Source of the DNA: Heterodontus francisci
Lineage: Eukaryota
Assembly: GCF_036365525.1 (NCBI RefSeq)
Contig: NC_090399.1
Span: 66,458,862-66,522,861, forward strand
Length of the DNA: 64,000 bases
Direction: 5' to 3'
Position numbers and translations under genes: made by a program. A model generated the notes under the pieces. It was given only the letters and a program-made list of their open reading frames with translations, had not been told where the DNA came from and made no database searches. Of this stretch, positions 3,831-64,000 are shown in pieces (positions within the stretch are counted from its first letter, which is position 1; every line of letters starts with the position of its first letter).

Positions 3831-3926
3831 TCATCCAGAAATTCCCAGCTCCACACACTGTTTCCCTTTCACTTTAAACAGACAGGGGTTTATTTATGTA
3901 TAGGGACATTCAGCCTCCCCCTCCCC

Positions 3927-10150: not shown

Positions 10151-10242
10151 GGAAAGTTTATTTCCACAACTCCAGGACTCTCCTACCCAGAGACCGATGA
10201 TTCACAGGCTATTTTTATTCTCATTGGCTCACTGGTATATTA
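10151..10242 (+). promoter_or_regulatory. MHC-type promoter module: ISRE-like, X1, X2, Y box, TATA-like
   Basis: X1 CCCAGAGACCGATG (10186-10199); X2 TGATTCA (10198-10204); exactly 20 nt to Y box CTCATTGG (10220-10227), as in the HLA-DRA X-Y arrangement; imperfect ISRE AGTTTATTTCC (10155-10165); TATATTA (10236-10242). Confidence 0.68.
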
Positions 10243-10385
10243 GTGTCCGATCAGTATGGAGATGTCTGAGTAATCCGGAACACTTCCTGGTTTGATACAA
10301 TCAGCACTGCAATGGGCACACAGGCAGTTTGATGGGAAAGGATTCCCGACAATCTGTTCAACCCAGCCTATCGTGGGATGCAGCA

Positions 10386-10434
10386 ATGATTGGACTGATA
10401 GAGCTGGTCCTGCTGTGTGGAGGGGTCTCTGCAG
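10386..10434 (+). CDS. Exon 1 (signal peptide) of a probable MHC class I heavy-chain gene or pseudogene: MIGLIELVLLCGGVSA + G (phase 1)
   Basis: ATG at 10386 (G at -3), 16 mostly hydrophobic codons ending in the cleavage-type V-S-A, then G|GTGGGT donor (phase 1, as in MHC leader exons). The peptide resembles shark class I leaders as recalled (…LVLLCGGVSA) and sits ~160 bp downstream of an X-Y module. Confidence 0.62.
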
Positions 10435-10539
10435 GTGGGTAATGGGGACTGAGGGGGTCTGAGTGCCAGGCTGGGTACTGGGGTATTAACCCTGTCAGTG
10501 GGTGATGAGGACTGAGATGATCTCAGTGCTCGGCTGGGT
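10435..10539. repeat. 65-bp minisatellite, left part (starts at the splice donor)
   Basis: GTGGGTAATGGGGACTGAG.GGGTCTGAGTGCCAGGCTGGGTACTGGGGTATTAACCCT(C)GTCA; continues at 11740-11925 after the RTE insertion. Confidence 0.85.
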
Positions 10540-11739
10540 CTCCTTTGGCCTCCTTATCTCGAAAGACACTGGGTAAGCGCCTAGAGGTGGTCAGTGGTTT
10601 GTGGAGCAGCGCCTGGAGTGGCTATAATGGCCAATTCTAGAGTGACAGACTGTTTTTATTTATTTATTTTGAGATACAGCACTGAAACAGGCCGTTCGGC
10701 CCACCGAGTCTGTGCCGACCATCAACCACACATTTATACTAATCCTACATTAATCCGATATTCCTACCACATCCCCACGATTCCCCTACCACCTACCGAT
10801 ACTAGGGGAAATTTATAATGGCCAATTTACCAATCAACCTGCAAGTCTTTGGCAAGTCTTCCACAGGCGCTGCAGATAAAATTGGTTGTCGGGGCTGTTG
10901 CACAGTTGGCTCTCTCCTTGCGCTTCTGTCTTTTTTTCCTGCCAACTGCTAAGTCTCTTCGACTCACCACTCTTTAGCCCCACCTTTATGGCTGCCCGCC
11001 AGCTCTGGCGATTACTGGCAACTGACTCCCACGACTTGTGATCAATGTCACAGGACTTCATGTCGCGTTTGCAGACGTCTTTAAAGCGGAGACAATGACG
11101 GCCGGTGGGTCTGATACCAGTGGCGAGCTCACTGTCCAATGCATCCTTGGGGATCCTGCCATCTTCCATGCAGCTCACATGGCCAAGCCATCTCAAGCGC
11201 CGCTGGCTCAGTAGGGTGTATATGCTGGGGGTGTTGGCTGCCTCGAGGACTTCTGTGTTGCAGATGCGGTCCTGCCACCTGATGCCAAGGATTCTCTGGA
11301 GGCAGCGAAGATGGAATGAATTGAGACGTTGCTCTTGGCTGACATACGTTGTCCAGGCCTCGCTGCCGTAGAGCAAGGTACTGAGGACACAGGCTTGATA
11401 CACTCGGACTTTTGTGTTCCGTGTCAGTGCGCCATTTTCCCACACTCTCTTGGCCAGTCTGGACATAGCAGTGGAAGCCTTTCCCATGCGCTTGTTGATT
11501 TCTGCATCGAGAGACAGGTTACTGGTGATAGTTGAGCCTCGGTAGGTGAACTCTTGAACCACTTCCAGAGCGTGGTCGCTGATATTGATGGATGGAGCAT
11601 TTCTGACATCCTGCCCCATGATGTTCGTTTTCTTGAGGCTGATGGTTAGGCCAAATTCGTTGCAGGCAGCCGCAAACCTGTCGATGAGTCTCTGCAGGCA
11701 CTCTTCAGTGTTGGATGTTAATGCAGCATCATTAGCATC
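10540..11739 (-). mobile_element. RTE-clade LINE, 5'-truncated at the RT catalytic motif
   Basis: VYQACVLSTLLYGSEAW, FHLRCLQRILGIRWQD, RLRWLGHV..MEDGRIPK, RFKDVCKRDMK (RTE signature); 5' end reads A-N-D-A-A-L (degenerate ADDAAL) at ~11720-11737. Confidence 0.92.
10652..10857 (-). mobile_element. HE1/V-SINE-like element, 5'-truncated, nested in the RTE 3' end
   Basis: (TTTA)n tail, then TACAGCACTGAAACAGGCCGTTCGGCCCACCGAGTC matching the CR1 3' end at 1561-1600; body AATTTATAATGGCCAATTTACC..AACCTGCAAGTCTTTGG; RTE sequence rejoins as GACAGACT|CTTCCACAGG. Confidence 0.72.
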
Positions 11740-11925
11740 GAGGACTGAGATGACCTCAATGCCAGGCTGGGTACTGGGGTGTTAACCCTCGGTCAGTGGG
11801 TAATGGGGACTGAGAGGGTCTGAGTGCCAGGCTGGGTACTGGGGTATTAACCCTCGGTCAGTGGGTAATGGGGACTAAGAGGGTCTCAGTGCCAGGCTGG
11901 GTACTGGGATGTTAACCCTCAGTCA
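11740..11925. repeat. 65-bp minisatellite, right part (~3 units)
   Basis: GTGGGTAATG at 11796 and 11861 (period 65). Confidence 0.88.
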
Positions 11926-14681: not shown

Positions 14682-15005
14682 CAGTATTGTCTAACCCTTT
14701 CAATTGGGCGGGGGCATATTACAATTTATGTCTTTCTTGGGGGGCCGGTGAGACAATTTAAGAAAGATAAAGGCATCAAAAAGTTATCTTGCTATTAATC
14801 AAAACAACAGCAAATGTGCATTTTTCTGAAGAAGCTTTAAATGAGAAGATTAATTTATTGTCTTACTTTCTCATCACTATGTTGGATATTGATTTAGTGA
14901 GATACTTGGCATTTTGTTGCTTGCACAAGTAGTCAGTGTCTGCCTGCACACATGAGGCGATGCAGAGTATTCTGGACAGATGTCCATCTGTCAGGAGTGA
15001 TCTCT
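14682..15005 (-). mobile_element. hAT (Charlie/SPIN-like) DNA transposon 3' fragment with terminal TIR-like end
   Basis: Terminus CAGTATTGTCTAACCCTTT (Charlie-like CAG...CAACCTTT); minus strand encodes RSLLTDGHLSRILCIASCVQADTDYLCKQ then, after a frameshift, CQVSH-stop, typical of hAT/GTF2IRD2-type transposase C-termini. Confidence 0.6.
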
Positions 15006-15310
15006 CTCTCCCAGTCTGTCTCTCTCCCTGTGTTGCCACCCCCCCCCCCCCCCCCACCCACGGTGTTGTTCTCCCCCTCTCTGTGTCGTCCTCGCTCTCT
15101 GTATCGCCCCCCTCTGTCCCCCCCATTCTCTCTTTGTGCCTGCCTCTCTCTATATCTCTCTCTCTGTCCTCCTCTCGCTCTGTTTCTGTCCCCCCCTCTC
15201 TGTGTCTCCCTCTCTCTCTCTGTCCCCATCTCTGTCCTGCCTCTCTCTCTCCCTGTTTCCACTGCCCCTCTCTGTTCCCGCTCTCTCTCTTTTCCCTCTT
15301 TCTCTCTCTC
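15001..15310. repeat. Pyrimidine-rich low-complexity tract with a C17 run (15039-15055)
   Basis: Degenerate (TC)/(TCTG)/(CCCC) sequence leading directly into the satellite. Confidence 0.85.
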
Positions 15311-18300
15311 TGTGGGGTTGGTGTTTTGGGGTTCATGCCCTGATGTCTATCTCTCGCTCTGTGGGGTTGGAGTTTTGGGGTTCATGCCCTGATGTCTATC
15401 TCTCTCTTTGGGGTTCATGCCCTGATGTCTCTCTCTCTCTGGGGTTGATGTTTTGGGGTTCATGCCCTGAAGTCTCTCTCTCTCTGGGGTTGATGTTTTG
15501 GGGTTCATGCCCTGATGTCTCTCTCTCTCTCTGCGGTTGATGTTTTGGGGTTCATGCCCTGATGTCTCTCTCTCTCTGGGGTTGATGTTTTGGGGTTCAT
15601 GCCCTGATGTCTCTCTCTCTCTCTTTGAGGTTGATGTTTCGGGGTTCATGCCCTGATGTCTCTCTCTCTCTTTGGGGTTGATGTTTTGGGGTTCACGCCC
15701 TGATGTCTCTCTCTCTGGGGTTGATGTTTTGGGGTTCATGCCCTGATGTCTCTTGCTGTCTGTGGGGTTGATGTTTTGGGATTCATGCCCTGATGTCTCT
15801 CTCTCTGTGGGTTTGATGTTTTGGGGTTCATGCCCTGATGTCTCTCTCTCTGTGGGGTTGATGTTTTGGGGTTCATGCCCTGATGTCTCTGTCTCTGGGG
15901 TTGATGTTTTGGGGTTCATGCCCTGATGTCTCTCTCTGTGTGGGGTTGATGTTTTGGGGTTCATGCCCTGATGTCCATCTCTCTCTCTCTGGGGTTGATG
16001 TTTTGGGGTTCATGCCCTGATGTCTCTCTCTCTCTGGGGTTGGTGTTTTGGGGTTCATGCCCTGATGTCTCACTCTTTCGCTGGGGTTGATGTTTTGGGG
16101 TTCATGCCCTGATGTCTCTCTCTTTCTCTGGGGTTGATGTTTTGGGGTTCATGCCCTGATGTCTCTCTCTCTGGGGTTGATGTTTTGGGGTTCATGCCCT
16201 GATGTCTCTCTCTCTGGGGTTGATGTTTTGGGGTTCATGCCCTGATGTCTCTCTCTTAGGGGTTGATGTTTTGGGCTTCATGCCCTGATGTCTCTCTCTC
16301 TCTGGGGTTGATGTTTTGGGGTTCATGCCCTGATGTCTCTCTCTCTCTGGGGTTGATGTTTTGGGGTTCATGCCCTGATGTCTCTCTCTCTCTGGGGTTG
16401 ATGTTTTGGGCTTCATGCCCTGATGTCTCTCTCTCTCTGGGGTTGATGTTTTGGGGTTCATGCCCTGATGTCTCTCTCTCTCTGGGGTTGATGTTTTGGG
16501 GTTCATGCCCTGATGTCTCTCTCTCTCTGGGGTTGATGTTTTGGGGTTCATACCCTGATGTCTCTCTCTCTGGGGTTGATGTTTTGGGGTTCAGGCCCTG
16601 ATGTCTCTCTCTCTCTCTCTCTCGGGTTCATGCCCTGATGTCTCTCTCTCTGGGGTTGATGTTTTGGGGTTCATGCCCTGATGTCTCTCTCTCTGGGGTT
16701 GATGTTTTGGGGTTCATGCCCTGATGTCTCTCTCTCTGGGGTTGATGTTTTGGGCTTCATGCCCTGATGTCTCTCTCTCTCTGGGGTTGATGTTTTGGGG
16801 TTCATGCCCTGATGTCTCTCTCTCTCTCTGGGGCTGGTGTTTTGGGGTTCATGCCCTGATGTCTCTCTCTCTGGGGTTGATGTTTTGGGTTCATGCCCTG
16901 ATGTCTCTCTCTCTCTGGGGTTGATGTTTTGGGGTTCATGCCCTGATGTCTCTTGCTGTCTGTGGGGTTGATGTTTTGGGGTTCATGCCCTGATGTCTCT
17001 CTCTCTGTGGGTTTGATGTTTTGGGGTTCATGCCCTGATGTCTCTGTCTCTGGGGTTGATGTTTTGGGGTTCATGCCCTGATGTCTCTCTCTGTGTGGGG
17101 TTGATGTTTTGGGGTTCATGCCCTGATGTCTCTGTCTCTGGGGTTGATGTTTTGGGGTTCATGCCCTGATGTCTCTCTCTCTCTGTGTGGGGTTGATGTT
17201 TTGGGGTTCATGCCCTGATGTCTCTGTCTCTGGGGTTGATGTTTTGGGGTTCATGCCCTGATGTCTCTCTCTGTGTGGGGTTGATGTTTTGGGGTTCATG
17301 CCCTGATGTCCATCTCTCTCTCTCTGGGGTTGATGTTTTGGGGTTCATGCCCTGATGTCTCTCTCTCTCTGGGGTTGGTGTTTTGGGGTTCATGCCCTGA
17401 TGTCTCTCTCTTTCGCTGGGGTTGATGTTTTGGGGTTCATGCCCTGATGTCTCTCTCTTTCTCTGGGGTTGATGTTTTGGGGTTCATGCCCTGATGTCTC
17501 TCTCTCTGGGGTTGATGTTTTGGGGTTCATGCCCTGATGTCTCTCTCTCTGGGGTTGATGTTTTGGGGTTCATGCCCTGATGTCTCTCTCTCTCTGGGGT
17601 TGATGTTTTGGGCTTCATGCCCTGATGTCTCTCTCTCTCTGGGGTTGATGTTTTGGGGTTCATGCCCTGATGTCTCTCTCTCTCTGGGGTTGATGTTTTG
17701 GGGTTCATGCCCTGATGTCTCTCTCTCTCTGGGGTTGATGTTTTGGGGTTCATGCCCTGATGTCTCTCTCTCTGGGGTTGATGTTTTGGGGTTCAGGCCC
17801 TGATGTCTCTCTCTCTCTCTCTCTCGGGTTCATGCCCTGATGTCTCTCTCTCTGGGGTTGATGTTTTGGGGTTCATGCCCTGATGTCTCTCTCTCTGGGG
17901 TTGATGTTTTGGGGTTCATGCCCTGATGTCTCTCTCTCTCTGGGGTTGATGTTTTGGGGTTCATGCCCTGATGTCTCTCTCTCTCTCTGGGGCTGGTGTT
18001 TTGGGGTTCATGCCCTGATGTCTCTCTCTCTGGGGTTGATGTTTTGGGTTCATGCCCTGATGTCTCTCTCTCTGGGGTTGATGTTTTGGGGTTCATACCC
18101 TGATGTCTCTATCGCTGGCGTTGATGTTTTGGGGTTCATGCCCTGATGTCTCTCTCTCATTGGGGTTGATTTTTTGGGGTTCATGCCGATGTCTCTCTCT
18201 TTGGGGTTGATGTTTTGGGGTTCATGCCCTGATGTCTCTCTCTCACTCTGGGGTCGGTGTTTTGGGGTTCATGCCCTGATGTCTCTCTCTTTGGGGTTCA

Positions 18301-21300
18301 TGCCCTGATGTCTCTCTCTCTCTTTGGGGTTGATGTTTTGGGGTTCATGCCCTGATGTCTCTCTCTTTGGGGTTGATGTTTTGGGGTTCATTCCCTGATG
18401 TCTCTCTCTTTGGGGTTCATGCCCTGATGTCTCTCTCTGGGGTTGATGTTTTGGGGTTCATGCCCTGATGTCTCTCACTCTCTGGGGTTGATGTTTTGGG
18501 GTTCATGCCCTGATGTCTCTCTCTTTGGGGTTCATGCCCTGATGTCTCTCTCTCTTTGGGGTTGATGTTTTGGGGTTCATGCCCTGATGTCTCTCTCTTT
18601 GGGGTTCATGCCCTGATGTCTCTCTCTCTCTGGGGTTGATGTTTTGGGGTTCATGCCCTGATGTCTCTCTCTCACTCTGGGGTCGGTGTTTTGGGGTTCA
18701 TGCCCTGATGTCTCTCTCTCTCTCTGGGGTTGATGTTTTGGGGTTTTTGCCCTGATGTCTCTCTCTCTGGGGTTGATGTTTTGGGGTTCATGTCCTGATG
18801 TCTCTCTCTTTGGGGTTCATGCCCTGATGTCTCTCTCTCTTTGGGGTTGATGTTTTGGGGTTCATGCCCTGATGTCTCTCTCTTTGGGGTTGATGTTTTG
18901 GGGTTCATGCCCTGATGTCTCGCTATTTGGGGTTGATGTTTTGGGGTTCTTGCCGATGTCTCTATCTTTGGGGTTGATGTTTTGGGGTTCTTGCCGATGT
19001 CTCTATCTTTGGGGTTGATGTTTTGGGGTTCATGCCCTGATGTCTCTCTCTCTCTGGGGTTGATGTTTTGGGGTTAATGCCCTGATGTCTCTCTCTTTGG
19101 GGTTGATGTTTTGGGGTTCATGCCCTGATGTCTCTCTCTCTCTGGGGTTGATGTTTTGGGGTTCATGCCCTGATGTCTCTCTCTCTTTGGGGTTGATGTC
19201 TTGGGGTTCATGCCCTGATGTATCTCTCTTTGGGGTTCATGCCCTGATGTCTCTCTCTCTGTGGGGTTGATGTTTTGGGGTTCATGCCCTGATGTCTCTC
19301 TCTTTGGGATTCATGCGCTGATGTCTCTCTCTCTGTGGGGTTGATGTTTTGGGGTTCATGCCCTGATGTATCTCTCTTTGGGGTTCATGCCCTGATGTCT
19401 CTCTCTCTGTGGGGTTGATGTTTTGGGATTCATGCCCTGATGTCTCTCTCTCTTTGGGGTTGATGTTTTGGGGTTCATGCCCTGATGTCTCTCTCTCTTT
19501 GGGGTTGATGTTTTGGGGTTCATGCCCTGATGTCTCTCTCTCACTCTGGGGTTGATGTTTTGGGGTTCATGCCCTGATGTCTCTCTCTCTCTGGGGTTGA
19601 TGTTTTGGGGTTCATGCCCTGATGTCTCTCTCTCTTTGGGGTTGATGTTTTGGGGTTCATGCCCTGATGTCTCTCTCTTTGGGGTTCATGCCCTGATGTC
19701 TCTCTCTCTTTGGGGGTTGATGTTTTGGGGTTCATGCCCTGATGTCTCTCTCTTTGGGGTTTATGTTTTGGGGTTCATGCCCTGATGTCTCTCTCTCTGG
19801 GGTTGATGTTTTGGGGTTCATGCCCTGATGTCTCTCTCTTTGGGGTTGCTGTTTTGGGGTTCATGCGCTGATGTCTCTCTCACTTTGGGGTTGATGTTTT
19901 GGGGTTCATGCCCTGATGTCTCTCTCTTTGGGGTTGATGTTTTGGGGTTCATGCCCTGATGTCTCTCTCTGGGGTTGATGTTTTGGGGTTCATGCCCTGA
20001 TGTCTCTCTTTGGGGATGATATTTTGGGGTTCATGCCCTGATGTCTCTCTCTCTGTGGGGTTGATGTTTTGGGGTTCATGCCCTGATGTCTCTCTCTCTG
20101 TGGGGTTGATGTTTTGGGGTTCATGCCCTGATGTCTCTCTCTCTCTGGGGTTGATGTTTTGGGGTTCATGCCCTGATGTCTCTCTCTATGTGGGGTTGAT
20201 GTTTTGGGGTTCATGCCCTGATGTCCATCTCTCTCTCTCTGGGGTTGATGTTTTGGGGTTCATGCCCTGATGTCTCTCTCTCTCTGTGGGGTTGATGTTT
20301 TGGGGTTCATGCCCTGATGTCTCTCTCTCTCTGGGGTTGATGTTTTGGGGTTCATGCCCTGATGTCTCTCGCTGTCTGTGGGGTTGATGTTTTGGGATTC
20401 ATGCTCTGATGTCTCTCTCTCTCTGGGGTTGATGTTTTGGATTTCATGCCCTGATCTCTCTCTCTCTGGGGTTGATGTTTTGGGGTTCATGCACTGATGT
20501 CTCTCTCTCTCTGGGGTTGATGTTTTGGATTTCATGCCCTGATCTCTCTCTCTCTGGGGTTGATGTTTTGCGGTTCATGCCCTGATGTCTCTCTCTCTGG
20601 GGTTGATGTTTTGGGGTTCATGCCCTGATGTCTCTCTCTTTGGGGTTGATGTTTTGGGGTTCATGCCCTGATGTCTCTCTCTCTGGGGTTGATGTTTTGG
20701 GGTTCATGCCCTGATGTCTCTCTCTTTAGGGTTGATGTTTTGGGGTTCATGCCCTGAAGTCTCTCTCTCTTTGGGGTTGATGTTTTGGGGTTCATGCCCT
20801 GATGTCTCTCTCTTTGGGGTTGATGTTTTGGGGTTCATGCCCTGATGTCTCTCTCTCTCTGGGGTTGATGTTTTGGGGTTCATGCCCTGATGTCTCTCTC
20901 TTTGGGGTTGATGTTTTGGGGTTCATGCCCTGATGTCTCTCTCTCTTTGGGGTTGATGTTTTGGGGTTCATGCCCTGATGTCTCTCTCTTTGGGGTTGAT
21001 GTTTTGGGGTTCATGCCCTGATGTCTCTCTCTTTGGGATTGATGTTTTGGGGTTCATGCCCTGATGTCTCTCTCTCTCTGGGGTTGATGTTTTGGGGTTA
21101 ATGACCTGATGTCTCTCTCTTTGGGTTTGATGTTTTGGGGTTCATGCCCTGCTGTCTCTCTCTCTTTGGGGTTGATGTTTTGGGGTTCATGCTTGGATGT
21201 CTCTCTCTTTGGGGTTCATGTTTTGGGGTTCATGCCCTGATGTCTCTCTCTTTGGGGTTGATGTTTTGGGGTTCATGCCCTGATGTCTCTCTCTTTGGGG

Positions 21301-51300: not shown

Positions 51301-54300
51301 CCTGATGTCTCTCTCTCTCTGTGGGGTTGATGTTTTGGGGTTCATGCCCTGATGTCTTTCTCTCTGTGGGGTTGATGTTTTGGGGTTCATGCCCTGATGT
51401 CCATCTCTCTCTCTCTGGTGTTGATGTTTTGGGGTTCATGCCCTGATGTCTCTCTTTGGGGTTGATGTTTTGGGGTTCATGCCCTGATGTCTCTCTTTGG
51501 GGATGATATTTTGGGGTTCATGCCCTGATGTCTCTCTCTCTCTGGGGTTGATGTTTTGGGGTCCATGCCCTGATGTCTCTCTCTCTCTCTGGGGTTGATG
51601 TTTTGGGGTTCATGCCCTGATGTCTCTCGCTGTCTGTGGGGTTGATGTTTTGGGATTCATGCCCTGATGTCTCTCTCTCTCTCTGGGGTTGATGTTTTGG
51701 GGTTCATGCCCTGATGTCTCTCTCTCTCTCTGTGGGGTTGATGTTTTGGGGTTCATGCCCTGATGTCTCTGTCTCTGGGGTTGGTGTTTTGGGTTTCATG
51801 CCCTGCTGTCTCTCTCTCTGTGGGGTTGATGTTTTGGGGTTCATGCCCTGATGTCCATCTCTCTCTGCGGTTGGTGTTTTGGGGTTCATGCCCTGATGTC
51901 TCTCTCTCTCTGTGGGGTTGATGTTTTGGGGTTCATGCCCTGATGTCCATCTCTCTCTCTCTGGGGTTCATGTTTTGGGGTTCATGCCCTGATGTCTCTC
52001 TCTCTCTGGGGTTGGTGTTTTGGGGTTCATGCCCTGATGTCTCTCTCTCTGGGGTTGATGTTTTGGGGTTCATGCCCTGATGTCTCTCCCTTTCTCTTGG
52101 GTTGATGTTTTGGGGTTCATGCCCTGATGTCTCTCTCTTTCTCTGGGGTTGATGTTTTGGGGTTCATGCCCTGATGTCTCTCTCTCTGTGGGGTTGATGT
52201 TTTGGGCTTCATGCCCTGATGTCTCTCTCTCTCTGGGGTTGATGTTTTGGGGTTCATGCCCAGATGTCTCTCTCTCTCTGGGGTTGGTGTTTTGGGGTTC
52301 ATGCCCTGATGTCTCTCTCTCTCTGGGGTTGATGTTTTGGGGTTCATGCCCTGATGTCTCTCTCTCTCTGCGATTGATGTTTTGCGTTCATGCCCTGATG
52401 TCTCTCTCTCTGGGGTTGATGTTTTGGGGTTCATGCCCTGGTGTCTCCCTCTTTGGGGTTGATGTTTTGGGGTTCATGCCCTGATGTCTCTCTTTCATTG
52501 GGGTTGATGTTTTGGGGTTCATGCCGATGTCTCTCTCTTTGGGGTTGATGTTTTGGGGTTCATGCCCTGATGTCTCTCTCTCATTGGGGTTGATGTTTTG
52601 GGGTTCATGCACTGATGTCTCTCTCTTTGGGGTTGATGTTTTGGGGTTCATGCACTGATGTCTCTCTCTCTCTGGGGTTGATGTTTTGGGGTTCATGCCC
52701 TGATGTCTCTCTCTCTCTGGGGTTAATGTTTTGGGGTTCATGTCCTGATGTCTCTCTCTCTCTGTGGGGTTGATGTTTTGGGGTTCATGCCCTGATGTCT
52801 CTCTCTCTGGGGTTGATGTTTTGGGGTTCATGCCCTGATGTCTCTCTCTTTCTCTTGTGTTGATGTTTTGGGGTTCATGCCCTGATGTCTCTCTCTCTCT
52901 GTGGGGTTGATGTTTTGGGGTTCATGCCCTGATGTCTTTCTCTCTGTGGGGTTGATGTTTTGGGGTTCATGCCCTGATGTCCATCTCTCTCTCTCTGGTG
53001 TTGATGTTTTGGGGTTCATGCCCTGATGTCTCTCTTTGGGGTTGATGTTTTGGGGTTCATGCCCTGATGTCTCTCTTTGGGGATGATATTTTGGGGTTCA
53101 TGCCCTGATGTCTCTCTCTCTCTGGGGTTGATGTTTTGGGCTTCATGCCCTGATGTCTCTCTCTTTGGGGTTGATGTTTTGGGGTTCATGCCCTGATGTC
53201 TCTCTCTCTGGGGTTGATGTTTTGGGGTTCCTGCCCTGATGTCTCTCTCTTTGGGGTTGATGTTTTGGGGTTCATGCCCTGATGTCTCTCTCTCTTTGGG
53301 GTTGATGTTTTGGGGTTCATGCCCTGATGTCTCTGTCTTTGGGGTTGATGTTTTGGTGTTCATGCCCTGATGTCTCTCTTTCATTGGGGTTGATGTTTTG
53401 GGGTTCATGCCGATGTCTCTCTCTTTGGGGTTGATGTTTTGGGGTTCATGCCCTGATGTCTCTCTCTCATTGGGGTTGATGTTTTGGGGTTCATGCACTG
53501 ATGTCTCTCTCTTTGGGGTTGATGTTTTGGGGTTCATGCACTGATGTCTCTCTCTCTCTGGGGTTGATGTTTTGGGGTTCATGCCCTGATGTCTCTCTCT
53601 CTCTGGGGTTAATGTTTTGGGGTTCATGTCCTGATGTCTCTCTCTCTCTGTGGGGTTGATGTTTTGGGGTTCATGCCCTGATGTCTCTCTCTCTGGGGTT
53701 GATGTTTTGGGGTTCATGCCCTGATGTCTCTCTCTTTCTCTTGTGTTGATGTTTTGGGGTTCATGCCCTGATGTCTCTCTCTCTCTGTGGGGTTGATGTT
53801 TTGGGGTTCATGCCCTGATGTCTTTCTCTCTGTGGGGTTGATGTTTTGGGGTTCATGCCCTGATGTCCATCTCTCTCTCTCTGGTGTTGATGTTTTGGGG
53901 TTCATGCCCTGATGTCTCTCTTTGGGGTTGATGTTTTGGGGTTCATGCCCTGATGTCTCTCTTTGGGGATGATATTTTGGGGTTCATGCCCTGATGTCTC
54001 TCTCTCTCTGGGGTTGATGTTTTGGGCTTCATGCCCTGATGTCTCTCTCTTTGGGGTTGATGTTTTGGGGTTCATGCCCTGATGTCTCTCTCTCTGGGGT
54101 TGATGTTTTGGGGTTCCTGCCCTGATGTCTCTCTCTTTGGGGTTGATGTTTTGGGGTTCATGCCCTGATGTCTCTCTCTCTTTGGGGTTGATGTTTTGGG
54201 GTTCATGCCCTGATGTCTCTGTCTTTGGGGTTGATGTTTTGGTGTTCATGCCCTGATGTCTCTCTCTGGGGTTGATGTTTTGGGGTTCATGCCCTGATGT

Positions 54301-57300
54301 CTCTCTTCGGGGATGATATTTTGGGGTTCATGCCCTGATGTCTCTCTCTCTGTGGGGTTGATGATTTGGGGTTCATGTCCTGATGACCATCTCTCTCTCT
54401 CTGGGGTTGATGTTTTGGGGTTCATGCCCTGATGTCTCTCTATCTGGGGTTGATGTTTTGGGGTTCATGCCCTGATGTCTCTCTCTTTGGGGTTGATGTT
54501 TTGGGGTTCATGCCCTGATGTCTCTCTCTCTTTGGGGTTGATGTTTTGGGGTTCATGCCCTGATGTCTCTCTCTTAGGGGTTGGTGTTTTGGGGTTCATG
54601 CCCTGATGTCTCTCTCTGGGGTTGATGTTTTGGGGTTCATGCCCTGATGTCTCTCTTTGGGGATGATATTTTGGGGTTCATGCCCTGATGTCTCTCTCTC
54701 TCTGGGGTTGATGTTTTGGGGTTCATGCCCTGATGTCCATCTCTCTCTCTCTGGGGTTGATGTTTTGGGGTTCATGCCCTGATGTCTCTCTCTCTCTGTG
54801 GGGTTGATGTGTTGGGGTTCATGCCCTGATGTCCATCTCTCTCTCTCTGGGGTTGATGTTTTGGGGTTCAAGTCCTGATGTCTCTCTCTGTGGGGTTGAT
54901 GTTTTGGGGTTCATGCCCTGATGTCTCTCTCTCTCTCTCTGGGGTTGATGTTTTGCGGTTCATGCCCTGATCTCTCTCTCTCTCTGTGGGGTTGATGTTT
55001 TGGGGTTCATGCCCTGATGTCTCTCTCTCTTTGGGGTTGATGTTTTGGGGTTCATGCCCTGATGTCTCTGTCTCTGGGGTTGGTGTTTTGGGGTTCATGC
55101 CCTGATGTCTCTCTCTCTGTGCGGTTGATGTTTTGGGGTTCATGCCCTGATGTCCATCTCTCTCTCACTGGGGTTGATGTTTTGGGGTTCATGCCCTGAT
55201 GTCTCTCTCTCTCTGTGGGGTTGATGTTTTGGGGTTCATGCCCTGATGTCTTTCTCTCTGTGGGGTTGATGTTTTGGGGTTCATGCCCTCATGTCCATCT
55301 CTCTCTCTCTGGGGTTGATGTTTTGGGGTTCATGCCCTGATGTCTCTCTTTGGGGTTGATGTTTTGGGGTTCATGCCCTGATGTCTCTCTTTGGGGATGA
55401 TATTTTGGGGTTCATGCCCTGATGTCTCTCTCTCTCTGGGGTTGATGTTTTGGGGTTCATGCCCTGATGTCTCTCTCTGGGGTTGATGTTTTGGGGTTCA
55501 TGCCCTGATGTCTCTCTTCGGGGATGATATTTTGGGGTTCATGCCCTGATGTCTCTGTCTCTGTGGGGTTGATGTTTTGGGGTTCATGCCCTGATGTCCA
55601 TCTCTCTCTCTCTCTGGGGTTGATGTTTTTGGGTTCATGCCCTGATGTCTCTCTGTCTGGGGTTGATGTTTTGGGGTTCATGCCCTGATGTCTCTCTCTT
55701 TGGGGTTGATGTTTTGGGGTTCATGCCCTGATGTCTCTCTCTCTTTGGTGTTGATATTTTGGGGTTCATGCCCTGATGTCTCTCTTTGGGGTTGATGTTT
55801 TGGGGTTCATGCCCTGATGTCTTTCTCTGGGGTTGATGTTTTGGGGTTCATGCCCTGATGTCTCTCTTTGGGGATGATATTTTGGGGTTCATGCCCTGAT
55901 GTCTCTCTCTCTCTCTGGGGTTGATGTTTTGGGGTTCATGCCCTGATGTCCATCTCTCTCTCTCTGGGGTTGATGTTTTGGGGTTCATGCCCTGATGTCT
56001 CTCTCTCTCTGTGGGGTTGATGTTTTGGGGTTCATGCCCTGATGTCCATCTCTCTCTCTGTGGGGTTGATGTTTTGGGGTTCATGTCCTGATGTCTCTCT
56101 CTCTCTGTGGGGTTGATGTTTTGGGGTTCATGCCCTGATGTCTCTCTCTCTCTCTGGGGTTGATGTTTTGGGGTTCATGCCCTGATGTCTCTCTCTCTCT
56201 CTGGGGTTGATGTTTTGGGGTTCATGCCCTGATGTCTCTCGCTGTCTGTGGGGTTGATGTTTTGGGATTCATGCCCTGATGTCTCTCTCTCTGTGGCGTT
56301 GATGTTTTGGGGTTCATGCCCTGATGTCTCTGTCTCTGGGGTTGGTGTTTTGGGTTTCATGCCCTGATGTCTCTCTCTCTCTCTGGGGTTGATGTTTTGG
56401 GGTTCATGCCCTGATGTCTCTCTCTCTCTGTGGGGTTGATGTTTTGGGGTTCATGCCCTGATGTCTCTCTCTCTGTGGCGTTGATGTTTTGGGGTTCATG
56501 CCCTGATGTCTCTGTCTCTGGGGTTGGTGTTTTGGGTTTCATGCCCTGCTGTCTCTCTCTCTTTGGGGTTGATGTTTTGGGGTTCATGCCCTGATGTCTC
56601 TCTTTGGGGTTGATGTTTTGGGGTTCATGCCCTGATGTCTTTCTCTGGGGTTGATGTTTTGGGGTTCATGCCCTGATGTCTCTGTTTGGGGATGATATTT
56701 TGGGGTTCATGCCCTGATGTCTCTCTCTCTCTCTGGGGTTGATGTTTTGGGGTTCATGCCTGATGTCCATCTCTCTCTCTCTGGGGTTGATGTTTTGGGG
56801 TTCATGCCCTGATGTCTCTCTCTCTCTGTGGGGTTGATGTTTTGGGGTTCATGCCCTGATGTCCATCTCTCTCTCTCTGGGGTTGATGTTTTGGGGTTCA
56901 TGTCCTGATGTCTCTCTCTCTCTGTGGGGTTGATGTTTTGGGGTTCATGCCCTGATGTCTCTCTCTCTCTCTGGGGTTGATGTTTTGGGGTTCATGCCCT
57001 GATGTCTCTCTCTCTCTCTGGGGTTGATGTTTTGGGGTTCATGCCCTGATGTCTCTCGCTGTCTGTGGGGTTGATGTTTTGGGATTCATGCCCTGATGTC
57101 TCTCTCTCTGTGGCGTTGATGTTTTGGGGTTCATGCCCTGATGTCTCTGTCTCTGGGGTTGGTGTTTTGGGTTTCATGCCCTGATGTCTCTCTCTCTCTC
57201 TGGGGTTGATGTTTTGGGGTTCATGCCCTGATGTCTCTCTCTCTCTGTGGGGTTGATGTTTTGGGGTTCATGCCCTGATGTCTCTCTCTCTGTGGCGTTG

Positions 57301-60300
57301 ATGTTTTGGGGTTCATGCCCTGATGTCTCTGTCTCTGGGGTTGGTGTTTTGGGTTTCATGCCCTGCTGTCTCTCTCTCTGTGGGGTTGATGTTTTGGGGT
57401 TCATCCCCTGATGTCCATCTCTCTCAGCGGTTGGTGTTTTGGGGTTCATGCCCTGATGTCTCTCTCTCTCTGGGGTTGGTGTTTTGGGGTTCATGCCCTG
57501 ATGTCTCTCTGGGGTTGATGTTTTGGGGTTCATGCCCTGATGTCTCTCTCTTTCTCTTGTGTTGATGTTTTGGGGTTGATGCCCTGATGTCTCTCTCTCT
57601 CTGTGGGGTTGATGTTTTGGGGTTCATGCCCTGATGTCTTTCTCTCTGTGGGGTTGATGTTTTGGGGTTCATGCCCTGATGTCCATCTCTCTCTCTCTGG
57701 TGTTGATGTTTTGGGGTTCATGCCCTGATGTCTCTCTTTGGGGTTGATGTTTTGGGGTTCATGCCCTGATGTCTCTCTTTGGGGATGATATTTTGGGGTT
57801 CATGCCCTGATGTCTCTCTCTCTGGGGTTGATGTTTTGGGGTTCATGCCCTGATGTCTCTCTCTCTCTGTGGGGTTGATGTTTTGGGGTTCATGCCCTGA
57901 TGTCCATCTCTCTCTCTCTGGGGTTGATGTTTTGGGGTTCATGCCCTGATGTCTCTCTCTCTCTGGGGTTAATGTTTTGGGGTTCATGTCCTGATGTCTC
58001 TCTCTCTCTGTGGGGTTGATGTTTTGGGGTTCATGCCCTGATGTCTCTCTCTCTCTCTGGGGTTGATGTTTTGGGGTTCATGCCCTGATGTCTCTCTCTC
58101 TCTCTGGGGTTGATGTTTTGGGGTTCATGCCCTGATGTCTCTCGCTGTCTGTGGGGTTGATGTTTTGGGGTTCATGCCCTGATGTCTCTGTCTCTGGGGT
58201 TGGTGTTTTGGGTTTCATGCCCTGCTGTCTCTCTCTCTGTGGGGTTGATGTTTTGGGGTTCATGCCCTGATGTCCATCTCTCTCTGCGGTTGGTGTTTTG
58301 GGGTTCATGCCCTGATGTCTCTCTCTCTCTGTGGGGTTGATGTTTTGGGGTTCATGCCCTGATGTCCATCTCTCTCTCTCTGGGGTTCATGTTTTGGGGT
58401 TCATGCCCTGATGTCTCTCTCTCTCTGGGGTTGGTGTTTTGGGGTTCATGCCCTGATGTCTCTCTCTCTGGGGTTGATGTTTTGGGGTTCATGCCCTGAT
58501 GTCTCTCCCTTTCTCTTGGGTTGATGTTTTGGGGTTCATGCCCTGATGTCTCTCTCTTTCTCTGGGGTTGATGTTTTGGGGTTCATGCCCTGATGTCTCT
58601 CTCTCTGTGGGGTTGATGTTTTGGGCTTCATGCCCTGATGTCTCTCTCTCTCTGGGGTTGATGTTTTGGGGTTCATGCCCAGATGTCTCTCTCTCTCTGG
58701 GGTTGGTGTTTTGGGGTTCATGCCCTGATGTCTCTCTCTCTCTGGGGTTGATGTTTTGGGGTTCATGCCCTGATGTCTCTCTCTCTCTGCGATTGATGTT
58801 TTGCGTTCATGCCCTGATGTCTCTCTCTCTGGGGTTGATGTTTTGGGGTTCATGCCCTGGTGTCTCCCTCTTTGGGGTTGATGTTTTGGGGTTCATGCCC
58901 TGATGTCTCTCTTTCATTGGGGTTGATGTTTTGGGGTTCATGCCGATGTCTCTCTCTTTGGGGTTGATGTTTTGGGGTTCATGCCCTGATGTCTCTCTCT
59001 CATTGGGGTTGATGTTTTGGGGTTCATGCCGATGTCTCTCTCTTTGGGGTTGATGTTTTGGGGTTCATGCCCTGATGTCTCTCTCTCTCTGGGGTTAATG
59101 TTTTGGGGTTCATGTCCTGATGTCTCTCTCTCTCTGTGGGGTTGATGTTTTGGGGTTCATGCCCTGATGTCTCTCTCTCTGGGGTTGATGTTTTGGGGTT
59201 CATGCCCTGATGTCTCTCTCTTTCTCTTGTGTTGATGTTTTGGGGTTCATGCCCTGATGTCTCTCTCTCTCTGTGGGGTTGATGTTTTGGGGTTCATGCC
59301 CTGATGTCTTTCTCTCTGTGGGGTTGATGTTTTGGGGTTCATGCCCTGATGTCCATCTCTCTCTCTCTGGTGTTGATGTTTTGGGGTTCATGCCCTGATG
59401 TCTCTCTTTGGGGTTGATGTTTTGGGGTTCATGCCCTGATGTCTCTCTTTGGGGATGATATTTTGGGGTTCATGCCCTGATGTCTCTCTCTCTCTGGGGT
59501 TGATGTTTTGGGGTTCATGCCCTGATGTCTCTCTTTGGGGATGATATTTTGGGGTTCATGCCCTGATGTCTCTCTCTCTCTGTGGGGTTGATGTTTTGGG
59601 GTTCATGCCCTGATGTCCATCTCTCTCTCTCTGGGGTTGATGTTTTGGGGTTCATGCCCTGATGTCTCTCTCTCTGTGGGGTTGATGTTTTGGGCTTCAT
59701 GCCCTGATGTCTCTCTCTCTCTGGGGTTGATGTTTTGGGGTTCATGCCCAGATGTCTCTCTCTCTCTGGGGTTGGTGTTTTGGGGTTCATGCCCTGATGT
59801 CTCTCTCTCTCTGGGGTTGATGTTTTGGGGTTCATGCCCTGATGTCTCTCTCTCTCTGCGATTGATGTTTTGCGTTCATGCCCTGATGTCTCTCTCTCTG
59901 GGGTTGATGTTTTGGGGTTCATGCCCTGGTGTCTCCCTCTTTGGGGTTGATGTTTTGGGGTTCATGCCCTGATGTCTCTCTTTCATTGGGGTTGATGTTT
60001 TGGGGTTCATGCCGATGTCTCTCTCTTTGGGGTTGATGTTTTGGGGTTCATGCCCTGATGTCTCTCTCTCATTGGGGTTGATGTTTTGGGGTTCATGCCG
60101 ATGTCTCTCTCTTTGGGGTTGATGTTTTGGGGTTCATGCACTGATGTCTCTCTCTCTCTGGGGTTGATGTTTTGGGGTTCATGCCCTGATGTCTCTCTCT
60201 CTCTGGGGTTAATGTTTTGGGGTTCATGTCCTGATGTCTCTCTCTCTCTGTGGGGTTGATGTTTTGGGGTTCATGCCCTGATGTCTCTCTCTCTGGGGTT

Positions 60301-63300
60301 GATGTTTTGGGGTTCATGCCCTGATGTCTCTCTCTTTCTCTTGTGTTGATGTTTTGGGGTTCATGCCCTGATGTCTCTCTCTCTCTGTGGGGTTGATGTT
60401 TTGGGGTTCATGCCCTGATGTCTTTCTCTCTGTGGGGTTGATGTTTTGGGGTTCATGCCCTGATGTCCATCTCTCTCTCTCTGGTGTTGATGTTTTGGGG
60501 TTCATGCCCTGATGTCTCTCTTTGGGGTTGATGTTTTGGGGTTCATGCCCTGATGTCTCTCTTTGGGGATGATATTTTGGGGTTCATGCCCTGATGTCTC
60601 TCTCTCTCTGGGGTTGATGTTTTGGGGTTCATGCCCTGATGTCTCTCTTTGGGGATGATATTTTGGGGTTCATGCCCTGATGTCTCTCTCTCTCTGTGGG
60701 GTTGATGTTTTGGGGTTCATGCCCTGATGTCCATCTCTCTCTCTCTGGGGTTGATGTTTTGGGGTTCATGCCCTGATGTCTCTCTCTCTGGGGTTAATGT
60801 TTTGGGGTTCATGTCCTGATGTCTCTCTCTCTCTGTGGGGTTGATGTTTTGGGGTTCATGCCCTGATGTCTCTCTCTCTCTGTGGGGTTGATGTTTTGGG
60901 GTTCATGCCCTGATGTCTCTCTCTCTCTCTGGGGTTGATGTTTTGGGGTTCATGCCCTGATGTCTCTCTCTCTCTCTGGGGTTGATGTTTTGGGGTTCAT
61001 GCCCTGATGTCTCTCGCTGTCTGTGGGGTTGATGTTTTGGGATTCATGCCCTGATGTCTCTCTCTCTCTCTGGGGTTGATGTTTTGGGGTTCATGCCCTG
61101 ATGTCTCTCTCTCTCTGTGGGGTTGATGTTTTGGGGTTCATGCCCTGATGTCTCTGTCTCTGGGGTTGGTGTTTTGGGTTTCATGCCCTGCTGTCTCTCT
61201 CTCTGTGGGGTTGATGTTTTGGGGTTCATGCCCTGATGTCCATCTCTCTCTGCGGTTGGTGTTTTGGGGTTCATGCCCTGATGTCTCTCTCTCTCTGTGG
61301 GGTTGATGTTTTGGGGTTCATGCCCTGATGTCCATCTCTCTCTCTCTGGGGTTCATGTTTTGGGGTTCATGTACTGATGTCTCTCTCTCTCTGGGGTTGG
61401 TGTTTTGGGGTTCATGCCCTGATGTCTCTCTCTCTGGGGTTGATGTTTTGGGGTTCATGCCCTGATGTCTCTCCCTTTCTCTTGGGTTGATGTTTTGGGG
61501 TTCATGCCCTGATGTCTCTCTCTTTCTCTGGGGTTGATGTTTTGGGGTTCATGCCCTGATGTCTCTCTCTCTGTGGGGTTGATGTTTTGGGCTTCATGCC
61601 CTGATGTCTCTCTCTCTCTGGGGTTGATGTTTTGGGGTTCATGCCCAGATGTCTCTCTCTCTCTGGGGTTGGTGTTTTGGGGTTCATGCCCTGATGTCTC
61701 TCTCTCTCTGGGGTTGATGTTTTGGGGTTCATGCCCTGATGTCTCTCTCTTTCTCTGGGGTTGATGTTTTGGGGTTCATGCCCTGATGTCTCTCTCTCTG
61801 TGGGGTTGATGTTTTGGGGTTCATGCCCTGATGTCTCTCTGTCTCTTGGGTTGATGTTTTGGGGTTCATGCCCTGATGTCTCTCTCTTTCTCTGGGGTTG
61901 ATGTTTTGGGGTTCATGCCCTGATGTCTCTCTCTCTGTGGGGTTGATGTTTTGGGCTTCATGCCCTGATGTCTCTCTCTCTCTGGGGTTGATGTTTTGGG
62001 GTTCATGCCCAGATGTCTCTCTCTCTCTGGGGTTGGTGTTTTGGGGTTCATGCCCTGATGTCTCTCTCTCTGGGGTTGATGTTTTGGGGTTCATGCCCTG
62101 ATGTCTCCCTCTTTGGGGTTGATGTTTTGGGGTTCATGCCCTGATGTCTCTCTTTCATTGGGGTTGATGTTTTGGGGTTCATGCCGATGTCTCTCTCTTT
62201 GGGGTTGATGTTTTGGGGTTCATGCCCTGATGTCTCTCTCTCATTGGGGTTGATGTTTTGGGGTTCATGCCGATGTCTCTCTCTTTGGGGTTGATGTTTT
62301 GGGGTTCATGCACTGATGTCTCTCTCTCTCTGGGGTTGATGTTTTGGGGTTCATGCCCTGATGTCTCTCTCTCTCTGGGGTTAATGTTTTGGGGTTCATG
62401 TCCTGATGTCTCTCTCTCTCTGTGGGGTTGATGTTTTGGGGTTCATGCCCTGATGTCTCTCTCTCTCTCTGGGGTTGATGTTTTGGGGTTCATGCCCTGA
62501 TGTCTCTCTCTCACTCTGGGGTTGATGTTTTGGGGTTCATGCCCTGATGTCTCTCGCTGTCTGTGGGGTTGATGTTTTGGGATTCATGCCCTGATGTCTC
62601 TCTCTCTCTCTGGGGTTGATGTTTTGGGGTTCATGCCCTGATGTCTCTCTCTCTCTCTGTGGGGTTGATGTTTTGGGGTTCATGCCCTGATGTCTCTCTC
62701 TCTGTGGCGTTGATGTTTTGGGGTTCATGCCCTGATGTCTCTGTCTCTGGGGTTGGTGTTTTGGGTTTCATGCCCTGCTGTCTCTCTCTCTGTGGGGTTG
62801 ATGTTTTGGGGTTCATGCCCTGATGTCCATCTCTCTCTGCGGTTGGTGTTTTGGGGTTCATGCCCTGATGTCTCTCTCTCTGTGGGGTTGATGTTTTGGG
62901 GTTCATGCCCTGATGTCCATCTCTCTCTCTCTGGGGTTCATGTTTTGGGGTTCATGCCCTGATGTCTCTCTCTCTCTGGGGTTGGTGTTTTGGGGTTCAT
63001 GCCCTGATGTCTCTCTCTCTGGGGTTGATGTTTTGGGGTTCATGCCCTGATGTCTCTCTCTTTCTCTTGGGTTGATGTTTTGGGGTTCATGCCCTGATGT
63101 CTCTCTCTCTCTGTGGGGTTGATGTTTTGGGGTTCATGCCCTGATGTCTTTTTCTCTGTGGGGTTGATGTTTTGGGGTTCATGCCCTCATGTCCATCTCG
63201 CTCTCTCTGGGGTTGATGTTTTGGGGTTCATGCCCTGATGTCTCTCTTTGGGGATGATATTTTGGGGTTCATGCCCTGATGTCTCTCTCTCTGTGGGGTT

Positions 63301-64000
63301 GATGTTTTGGGGTTCATGCCCTGATGTCTCTCTCTGGGGTTGATGTTTTGGGGTTCATGCCCTGATGTCTCTCTTCGGGGATGATATTTTGGGGTTCATG
63401 CCCTGATGTCTCTGTCTCTGTGGGGTTGATGTTTTGGGGTTCATGCCCTGATGTCCATGTCTCTCTCTCTGGGGTTGATGTTTTGGGGTTCATGCCCTGA
63501 TGTCTCTCTGTCTGGGGTTGATGTTTTGGGGTTCATGCCCTGATGTCTCTCTCTTTGGGGTTGATGTTTTGGGGTTCATGCCCTGATGTCTCTCTCTCTT
63601 TGGGGTTGATGTTTTGGGGTTCATGCCCTGATGTCTTTCTCTGGGGTTGATGTTTTGGGGTTCATGCCCTGATGTCTGTCTTTGGGGATGATATTTTGGG
63701 GTTCATGCCCTGATGTCTCTCTCTCTCTGGGGTTGATGTTTTGGGGTTCATGCCCTGATGTCCATCTCTCTCTCTCTGGGGTTGATGTTTTGGGGTTCAT
63801 GCCCTGATGTCTCTCTCTCTCTGTGGGGTTGATGTTTTGGGGTTCATGCCCTGATGTCCATCTCTCTCTCTCTGGGGTTGATGTTTTGGGGTTCATGCCC
63901 TGATGTCTCTCTCTCATTGGGGTTGATGTTTTGGGGTTCATGCCGATGTCTCTCTCTTTGGGGTTGATGTTTTGGGGTTCATGCACTGATGTCTCTCTCT
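15311..64000. repeat. Large tandem satellite, ~43-49 bp unit TGGGGTTGATGTTTTGGGGTTCATGCCCTGATG(TC)n, roughly 1,100 units, with higher-order duplications; continues past the window end
   Basis: Continuous head-to-tail array on one strand with no interruption seen; unit length varies through the (TC)n tract; ~30-bp short units lack one GGGGTT sub-repeat. Copy number is 48.7 kb divided by ~44 bp. Confidence 0.99.

What the first reader, a model, noticed from the sequence alone, without database searches (positions are those of the whole stretch)
10435..64000. Putative intron 1 exceeds 53 kb and contains a >48 kb satellite, or the exon is an orphan
No alpha-1 exon (expected to begin roughly G|SHSLRY) was found between the donor at 10435 and the window end. 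That span is entirely minisatellite, RTE, SINE, CR1, hAT and satellite. Either an immune gene is transcribed through a very large satellite array, which could affect silencing, splicing and haplotype length, or the array and TEs have cut the promoter and leader off from the gene body.
Basis: inference. Interest (0 to 1): 0.7.

Follow-up and report, generated by a model that had tools for sequence, protein, structure and literature searches.

The report
Shark MHC gene, 59-kb satellite intron
The first exon of this shark immune gene (MHC class I) is not an orphan: it is joined to the next exon 58,843 bases away, across about 1,200 tandem copies of the intron's own end sequence, and this repeat is likely harmless filler rather than a control switch.

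Summary
The giant-intron branch is right and the orphan branch is refuted. The alpha-1 exon lies 5.3 kb beyond the window. Intron 1 is 58,843 bp, GT..AG, phase 1. A 229-nt contig from a probable RNA run joins leader to alpha-1 with no mismatch (one run, one sample). Seven exons give an open 351-aa class I heavy chain that NCBI already models. It lacks 4 of 8 classical peptide-anchoring residues. The 54-kb array holds about 1,220 copies of the intron's last ~43 nt (branch-point-like CTGAT plus CT tract, without the AG) and ends 15 nt before the acceptor. The same unit adjoins 21 of 27 class I alpha-1 acceptors examined, in 1 to 1,355 copies; 2 of 22 full introns are longer. Three arrays make up 88% of the 148-kb gene. 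AG is not consistently purged across arrays, so the array is likely a tolerated passenger. The scan reported the same unit earlier in a paralogue (e1-8657226). Array length is assembly-based; chromatin and effects on expression are untested.

The parts
10198..10227 (+). Promoter motifs: TGATTCA (X2/CRE-like, 10198) and ATTGG (Y-box-like, 10223); motif names recalled
   Evidence: similar pair and spacing seen by eye upstream of several paralogue leaders (42.52, 42.36, 32.79, 66.36 Mb); function untested
10386..10434 (+). Leader (signal peptide) exon, coding part, 49 nt, phase-1 donor GTGGGT
   Evidence: transcript contig covers 10298-10435 with 0 mismatches; 100% match to NCBI models
10435..64000 (+). 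In-window part of intron 1 (58,843 bp in all, GT..AG, ending at extended coordinate 69277; C29 = coordinate + 66,458,861). Beyond the window follow alpha-1 (69278-69538), alpha-2 (71280-71552), a 47-bp array of 43.7 kb, alpha-3 (115822-116097), the transmembrane exon (125141-125266), a 64-bp array of 32.6 kb and two cytoplasmic exons (158087-158122, 158509-158543)
   Evidence: no N in 264 kb; intron 92% tandem repeat; spliced joints
10837..11781 (-). Retroelement fragment, 315-aa open stretch with a weak RT match
   Evidence: RVT_1 E 0.0033, below cut-off
11742..11925 (+). 65-bp minisatellite, 2.8 copies, similar to the first bases of the intron (donor-side unit)
   Evidence: 63-65-bp arrays start at or near the donor in several paralogues
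15320..64000 (+). In-window part (48.7 kb) of the 43-45-bp satellite; about 1,220 copies and 53.9 kb in all, ending at extended coordinate 69264; unit = last segment of intron 1 with CTGAT and CT tract, no AG

Best explanation
This is an intact shark MHC class I heavy-chain gene whose 58,843-bp first intron is spliced out leader-to-alpha-1, and 54 kb of that intron is about 1,220 tandem copies of the intron's own last segment, likely grown in place and tolerated as a passenger. Shown: exon chain, open frame, one spliced contig, identity of the unit with the single-copy pre-acceptor segment of paralogues, and copy numbers from 1 to 1,355. Inferred: growth by slippage and unequal crossing-over. 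Also inferred: the spliceosome picks the true acceptor by exon definition, because only the last copy is followed by YAG plus an exon with a strong donor, while the array has no GTRAG donor to close a pseudo-exon behind its 15 cryptic acceptors. The CTGAT is a predicted branch point. The protein is likely a non-classical, class Ia-derived molecule.
For: Alpha-1 and alpha-2 exons lie on + just beyond the window. Seven exons, AG..GT, 1,056 nt, no internal stop, equal to NCBI isoform X4 from its second Met. Contig of run X7, 229 nt: 10298-10435 with 0 mismatches and a 91-nt loose end that reads as alpha-1; a contig of the same run, length and depth lies on alpha-1 with 0 mismatches. The nearest alpha-1 paralogue differs at 4 places in that stretch and the nearest leaders are 86-88% alike, so the contig is gene-specific. 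The unit adjoins 21 of 27 alpha-1 acceptors: 5 in one copy, 16 in 9-1,355 copies; the TRF array ends 8-19 nt before the acceptor in 14 of those 16. All 21 have a YTRAY motif 18-28 nt before the acceptor. The 230 nt at the start of the array match the last 240 nt of intron 1 in a single-copy paralogue (72%, low complexity). Near-identical blocks up to 3.8 kb repeat inside the array. The array has 0 GTRAG and 15 pyrimidine-tract YAG sites. In 13 paralogous arrays, AG-making G>A changes run from about one third to several times the per-site rate of other G>A changes, so there is no consistent purge. The intron-3 and intron-5 arrays are AG-rich (66 and 73 per kb), and a 137-bp unit in two neighbours includes the acceptor AG.
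Against: The leader joint rests on one contig in one run whose RNA status is a guess, from the same sample as the DNA runs; X5 and X6 contigs stop 26 nt inside alpha-1 and neither show nor contradict it. NCBI's models may use the same reads. In this array alone, G>A changes that create AG are about 7-fold fewer per site (18 over 6 sites, against 151 over 7), though the counts are not independent. A 98.6-kb array of the same unit lies before a TAP-like gene with no class I exon found in the 37 and 27 kb read around its two ends, so the unit also moves and in-place growth is not the whole story. 1,098 of 2,235 exact genome matches lay outside the class I stretches counted. Neutrality is a default reading, not a measured one. 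Array length was not checked with long reads.
Confidence: 0.72

Rival explanations
1. The array is a working expression brake. About 1,200 branch-point and CT-tract copies in the nascent RNA would bind U2AF/SF1/PTB-type factors, and the 148-kb unit would delay or dampen output, so array length would tune each class I paralogue.
For: All 1,137 exact copies counted in the class I stretches are on the sense strand. AG is 0.8 per kb in the array against 50-73 per kb in four other intron stretches. Drosophila satellite introns need dedicated RNA-binding proteins (PMC6508621, abstract).
Against: Sense orientation and lack of AG follow from the origin of the unit. There is no consistent AG purge across 14 arrays. 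Copy number runs 53-297 among near-identical paralogues and 14 v 1,223 between the closest pair. Other introns hold unrelated units. No expression level could be measured from contigs.
Confidence: 0.12
2. The array matters as shared homology between paralogues, promoting unequal exchange, leader/alpha-1 shuffling and fragment duplication in the MHC.
For: The closest relative (C29 66.836 Mb, minus strand; alpha-1 differs at 11 of 261 nt; alpha-2 has a stop) starts inside the array, after 14 units, with no match to the focal pre-array intron apart from the donor-side minisatellite. The unit also sits before a TAP-like gene.
Against: One breakpoint; it abuts a retroelement-like stretch (judged by eye) and may be a later deletion or insertion. 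No test of exchange rates was run. This can coexist with the passenger reading.
Confidence: 0.1
3. The intron is real, but the array is much shorter in vivo or misjoined; the 54 kb is inflated by assembly.
For: A 3,761-bp block is repeated almost exactly at offset 3,741. No long reads could be laid on the array.
Against: No N in 264 kb. Units vary (609 of 1,162 match the core exactly) with many different block periods. Both ends fit the paralogue layout and the spliced contig. Two other genes have arrays of similar size.
Confidence: 0.05
4. The leader is an orphan, cut off from its gene body by the array and transposons.
For: None left for this gene. Two other leaders on C29 (64.12 and 55.88 Mb) had no alpha-1 within the 10 kb read.
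Against: Alpha-1 exon in frame and in phase 58,843 bp downstream, spliced contig, and four NCBI models that include the leader.
Confidence: 0.01

Closest known systems
Human F7 intron 7 37-bp VNTR (PMC1557585; abstract and section list seen)
   Same: A minisatellite made of a splice-signal segment, giving repeated pseudo-sites that normally stay silent while the true site is used.
   Different: F7 repeats the donor; here the acceptor-side segment without its AG is repeated about 1,220 times over 54 kb, the true site is the last copy, and the unit recurs in 21 of 27 paralogue acceptors.
Drosophila Y-loop genes kl-3 and kl-5, satellite-filled gigantic introns (PMC6508621; abstract seen)
   Same: A gene transcribed through introns that are mostly satellite.
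   Different: Those are megabase simple satellites in testis genes with a dedicated expression programme; this is 54 kb of a 43-bp unit derived from the intron's own end, in an immune gene, with no programme shown.
Large, repeat-containing nurse shark MHC genes (PMC1513397; passages seen)
   Same: Shark MHC genes reported 3-5 times larger than mammalian ones, with simple repeats in a class I gene.
   Different: Here the gene spans 148 kb; the passages read do not describe units derived from splice signals. The primary paper (PMC7039333) was not held.
Elasmobranch 'MHC-Ia-like' genes near the class Ia region (PMC10751288 section 5 read)
   Same: Class I gene 0.8-1.3 Mb from TAP-like genes; groups (SH-aLRT 99, quick tree) with 13 shark sequences, 8 of which keep all eight anchoring residues.
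   Different: This protein has F7, F59, E146 and F171; no named lineage could be assigned.
Exons with long AG exclusion zones and distant branch points (PMC1431707; passages seen)
   Same: AG-poor, pyrimidine-rich sequence upstream of an acceptor, where scanning finds the first AG.
   Different: The strict AG-free zone here is only 125 nt, 44 AG occur in the array, and a branch-point motif lies 28 nt from the acceptor, so a distant branch point is not needed.

Membership tests
MHC class I heavy chain | Alpha-1/alpha-2 (PF00129) plus C1-set alpha-3 domain | tested here: met
   PF00129 E 5.9e-43 and PF07654 E 7.6e-14, both over cut-off; best PDB match of alpha-2 is class I chain 6lup_A
MHC class I heavy chain | Leader, three domain exons, transmembrane and cytoplasmic exons in phase 1, open frame | tested here: met
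MHC class I heavy chain | Spliced transcript | tested here: met
   leader/alpha-1 in 1 of 3 probable RNA runs of one sample; alpha-1/alpha-2 in X5, X6 and X8 of 4 runs laid; later joints not tested
Classical class Ia (UAA) | Eight conserved peptide-anchoring residues YYRTKWYY (numbering recalled) | tested here: not met
   FFRTEWYF, 4 of 8 kept
Classical class Ia (UAA) | High polymorphism and broad expression | not testable with these tools
   one assembly, contig-level RNA only
Classical class Ia (UAA) | Tight linkage to TAP1/2 and PSMB8/9 | tested here: inconclusive
   ABC-membrane exons at C29 65.13-65.66 Mb, 0.8-1.3 Mb away, with another class I gene (66.35 Mb) between; PSMB not searched
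Named shark non-classical lineages (UBA, UDA, UEA, UFA, UGA) | Clade membership with named reference sequences | tested here: inconclusive
   Quick tree only, 45 rows chosen from the proteins found, references not labelled by lineage; the lineage papers were not held
Splice-signal-derived minisatellite (F7 IVS7 kind) | Terminal unit forms part of a true splice signal | tested here: met
   Last unit supplies the CT tract and a YTRAY motif 28 nt before the used acceptor; branch point predicted, not mapped
Splice-signal-derived minisatellite (F7 IVS7 kind) | Pseudo-sites are functional but silent | tested here: inconclusive
   15 cryptic acceptors; the one loose end seen at the donor in an RNA-like run goes to the true acceptor, too little to show silence
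Splice-signal-derived minisatellite (F7 IVS7 kind) | Copy number varies between alleles (VNTR) | not testable with these tools
   Varies between paralogues; no second haplotype held
Intron gigantism with a dedicated expression programme (Drosophila Y-loop kind) | Megabase satellite introns, over 99% of the locus | tested here: not met
   Largest intron 58.8 kb; arrays are 88% of 148 kb
Intron gigantism with a dedicated expression programme (Drosophila Y-loop kind) | Specific RNA-binding proteins needed for transcription or processing | not testable with these tools
   needs experiments

The most novel reading that the evidence does not exclude
Shark MHC genes carry a family of satellites born from their own splice signals, and the length of the branch-point/pyrimidine array in intron 1 (1 to 1,355 copies, also 98.6 kb before a TAP-like gene) acts as a heritable dial on expression or on exchange between class I paralogues.
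Probability: 0.15. Interest if true: 0.75.

Novelty: new variant of a known kind. Interest (0 to 1): 0.4.

Why it matters
It also gives a natural series, 1 to 1,355 copies of one branch-point-like and pyrimidine segment before homologous exons, in which to test how a vertebrate spliceosome picks one acceptor among about 1,200 decoy tracts and whether intron satellite length alters immune-gene output. In practice, such arrays would break short-read assemblies and could make whole shark MHC genes look like fragments (inference).

Tried and rejected
Orphan leader: rejected. Alpha-1 hidden inside the window: none. Retrocopy as source of the spliced contig: the leader region has one 100% match in the assembly among 39 candidates scored; not excluded beyond that. 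Selection against AG: a first count in this array suggested depletion, but 13 paralogous arrays did not repeat it consistently; T>A changes that make AG were fewer in most arrays, but those counts rest on few amplified variants in closely related copies. Distant-branch-point model: not needed. A cytoplasmic-like exon 93 nt after the transmembrane exon was first taken as the gene's end; NCBI isoform X4 and one search place the two cytoplasmic exons 32.8 kb further on. C1-set family search did not list this alpha-3 exon (150 of 626 candidates scored); it was found by reading. No listed run is on record as RNA: no RNA holder listed, no evidence either way. Both read-laying runs went to exon joints, so the array junction at 15.3 kb was not checked. 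The careful tree did not finish; the quick tree was used. Two of 29 stretches gave no alpha-1 and 5 more no leader, leaving 22 full introns; contigs C815 and C1655 may duplicate C29 copies. Literature searches listed no paper on shark MHC intron satellites derived from acceptor segments; three papers were not held and no supplements were read, so absence from print is not shown.
Full report
Observation. The window is G000:C29:66458862-66522861. A 49-nt leader exon runs from ATG 10386 to 10434, followed by GTGGGT. From 15,320 to the window end lies one array of a 43-45-bp unit. tblastn with 123 class I proteins finds no domain exon in 10435-64000: 1 hit from a non-MHC N-terminal stretch, against 248 in the next 8 kb. 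The transposon class labels were not tested beyond a weak RT match and a dispersed repeat.

The missing exon. A PF00129 search of the own genome gave 64 matches from 74 candidates, among them alpha-1 and alpha-2 on + about 5.3 and 7.3 kb beyond the window. In extended coordinates (C29 = coordinate + 66,458,861) the exons are leader 10386-10434, alpha-1 69278-69538, alpha-2 71280-71552, alpha-3 115822-116097, transmembrane 125141-125266, and cytoplasmic 158087-158122 and 158509-158543. Introns 1 to 5 are 58,843, 1,741, 44,269, 9,043 and 32,820 bp. The 1,056-nt frame is open and equals NCBI isoform X4 from its second Met. NCBI holds four isoform models, labelled Heterodontus francisci by the source. 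So the gene is already annotated, and 264 kb read here hold no N.

Splicing. In run X7 (RNA by guess) a 229-nt contig covers 10298-10435 without mismatch and its 91-nt loose end reads as the alpha-1 exon. A contig of the same run, length and depth lies on alpha-1 without mismatch. The nearest paralogous alpha-1 differs at 4 places in that stretch, so the contig belongs to this gene. The alpha-1/alpha-2 joint (1,741 nt, GT..AG) appears in X5, X6 and, in another organism, X8. Limits: the leader joint is seen in 1 of 3 probable RNA runs, all one sample; contigs show presence, not level.

The array. It spans 15,320-69,264 (53.9 kb, about 1,220 copies) and ends 15 nt before the acceptor by TRF. Its unit is the end of intron 1 itself. 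Of 27 alpha-1 acceptors found in 29 stretches, 21 have this unit directly upstream: 5 in one copy and 16 in 9 to 1,355 copies. All 21 have a YTRAY motif 18-28 nt before the acceptor, the usual place of a branch point (established knowledge; not mapped here). The start of the array matches the end of intron 1 in a single-copy paralogue (72% over 242 nt, low complexity), as expected if the array grew in place. Among 22 full first introns (6,138-66,815 bp, median about 14 kb from the list) this one is third; the two longer ones hold 1,198 and 1,355 copies. Introns 3 and 5 hold unrelated 47-bp and 64-bp arrays that also end shortly before their acceptors; the three arrays are 130,289 of 148,158 bp.

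Is the lack of AG selected? The array has 44 AG in 53,955 bp, against 50-73 per kb in four other intron stretches. That follows from the unit. G>A changes that make AG are rarer here (18 over 6 sites, against 151 over 7), but in 13 paralogous arrays the ratio goes both ways (81 over 7 against 99 over 7; 43 over 6 against 10 over 7; 26 over 7 against 86 over 7), and counts are inflated by block duplication. Fifteen pyrimidine-tract YAG sites persist in the array, which has no GTRAG donor. Two neighbouring genes repeat a 137-bp unit that includes the acceptor AG. There is no consistent purge.

Against a purely local origin. An array of the same unit spans C29:65,681,535-65,780,178 on the minus strand (both ends read, 4 interior samples) and ends in TTTCAG about 100 nt before an ORF start upstream of ABC-membrane exons; no class I exon was found in the 37 and 27 kb read around its ends. 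This checks a lead from note e1-8657226. The unit can therefore move. Also, the closest relative of this gene is a broken alpha-1/alpha-2 fragment that begins inside the array after 14 units. Only 1,137 of 2,235 exact genome matches lay in the class I stretches counted, all on the sense strand.

Mechanism. Shown: intact gene, one spliced leader joint, the identity and spread of the unit. Inferred: tandem growth by slippage and unequal exchange; choice of the true acceptor by exon definition, since only the last copy is followed by YAG and an exon with a GTGAGT donor; no effect of note on output. I put this at 0.72, an expression brake at 0.12, a recombination role as the main significance at 0.10, assembly inflation at 0.05, and orphan at 0.01.

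The protein. PF00129 and C1-set pass their cut-offs. It keeps 4 of 8 classical anchoring residues (FFRTEWYF; numbering recalled) and in a quick tree of 45 rows groups, at SH-aLRT 99, with 13 shark sequences of which 8 keep all eight. It lies 0.8-1.3 Mb from TAP-like exons. This fits the 'MHC-Ia-like' genes near the class Ia region mentioned in PMC10751288 (section 5 read; passages). It fails the residue test for classical class Ia, and no named lineage could be assigned (PMC12562908 passages, list the lineages).

What is known. Satellite-filled giant introns are known in Drosophila (PMC6508621, abstract). Minisatellites that repeat a splice signal are known from human F7 (PMC1557585, abstract). 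Large, repeat-containing shark MHC genes are known (PMC1513397, passages). AG exclusion zones are known (PMC1431707, passages). Eight searches listed no paper on acceptor-side arrays of this size in shark MHC, but key shark papers were not held and no supplements were read. The scan itself noted the same unit at the 42.46-Mb paralogue and similar introns elsewhere in this MHC; these notes are leads, not independent support.

Verdict. Real, not an orphan, already annotated as a gene. It is a large acceptor-side variant of a known kind of repeat, and one of at least three such introns on this chromosome. Interest 0.4.

Noticed in passing
extended 125426-158068 (L057-L062; intron 5): The 64-bp unit holds an acceptor-like CAG overlapping a donor-like GTAAGT; the array has 441 GTRAGT matches. 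It could allow recursive or cryptic splicing.
   Followed up: no
L057:1360-1400 (extended 125360-125400): A second, cytoplasmic-like exon with an AG acceptor 93 nt after the transmembrane exon; read through, it ends the protein after about 13 more residues. Possible alternative tail.
   Followed up: partly
NCBI isoforms X1-X3 (P0001, P0008, P0010): These end in a different tail of about 34 residues in three slightly different versions; a roughly 6-kb periodic block with 33-bp arrays lies at extended 163-212 kb. Source exon not located.
   Followed up: no
G000:C29:65,681,535-65,780,178 (L141-L144, L150-L153), minus strand: 98.6-kb array of the same intron-1 unit ending in TTTCAG just before the first ORF of a TAP-like gene.
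   Followed up: partly
L118 (C29:66.833-66.843 Mb): Minus-strand alpha-1/alpha-2 fragment, closest relative of this gene, alpha-2 with a stop, starting inside the repeat. Six variant letters in an X7 contig match it. It sits back to back with a + strand leader whose next + strand alpha-1 hit is about 196 kb away.
   Followed up: partly
C29:66.36 Mb (minus) and 66.70 Mb (plus) genes: Their first introns end in a 137-bp unit that includes the acceptor AG and the first exon bases, 14.5 and 136 copies.
   Followed up: no
L126 (C29 64.12 Mb) and L127 (C29 55.88 Mb): Leader-like exons with no alpha-1 in the 10 kb read; the first has a stop and a non-GT donor, the second stretch has 200 N. Candidates for true orphans or further giant introns.
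   Followed up: no
window 3925-5541: 49-bp minisatellite, 33 copies, 92% matches, 5 kb upstream of the promoter.
   Followed up: no
window about 560-1500 and 6200-7120: An apparent dispersed duplication of about 0.9 kb upstream of the gene, seen by eye.
   Followed up: no
C29 57.4-62.8 Mb, C815, C1655: At least nine near-identical class I copies that keep all eight classical anchoring residues in the one model checked (P0003), with intron 1 from 6.1 to 18.4 kb differing mainly in repeat number.
   Followed up: partly
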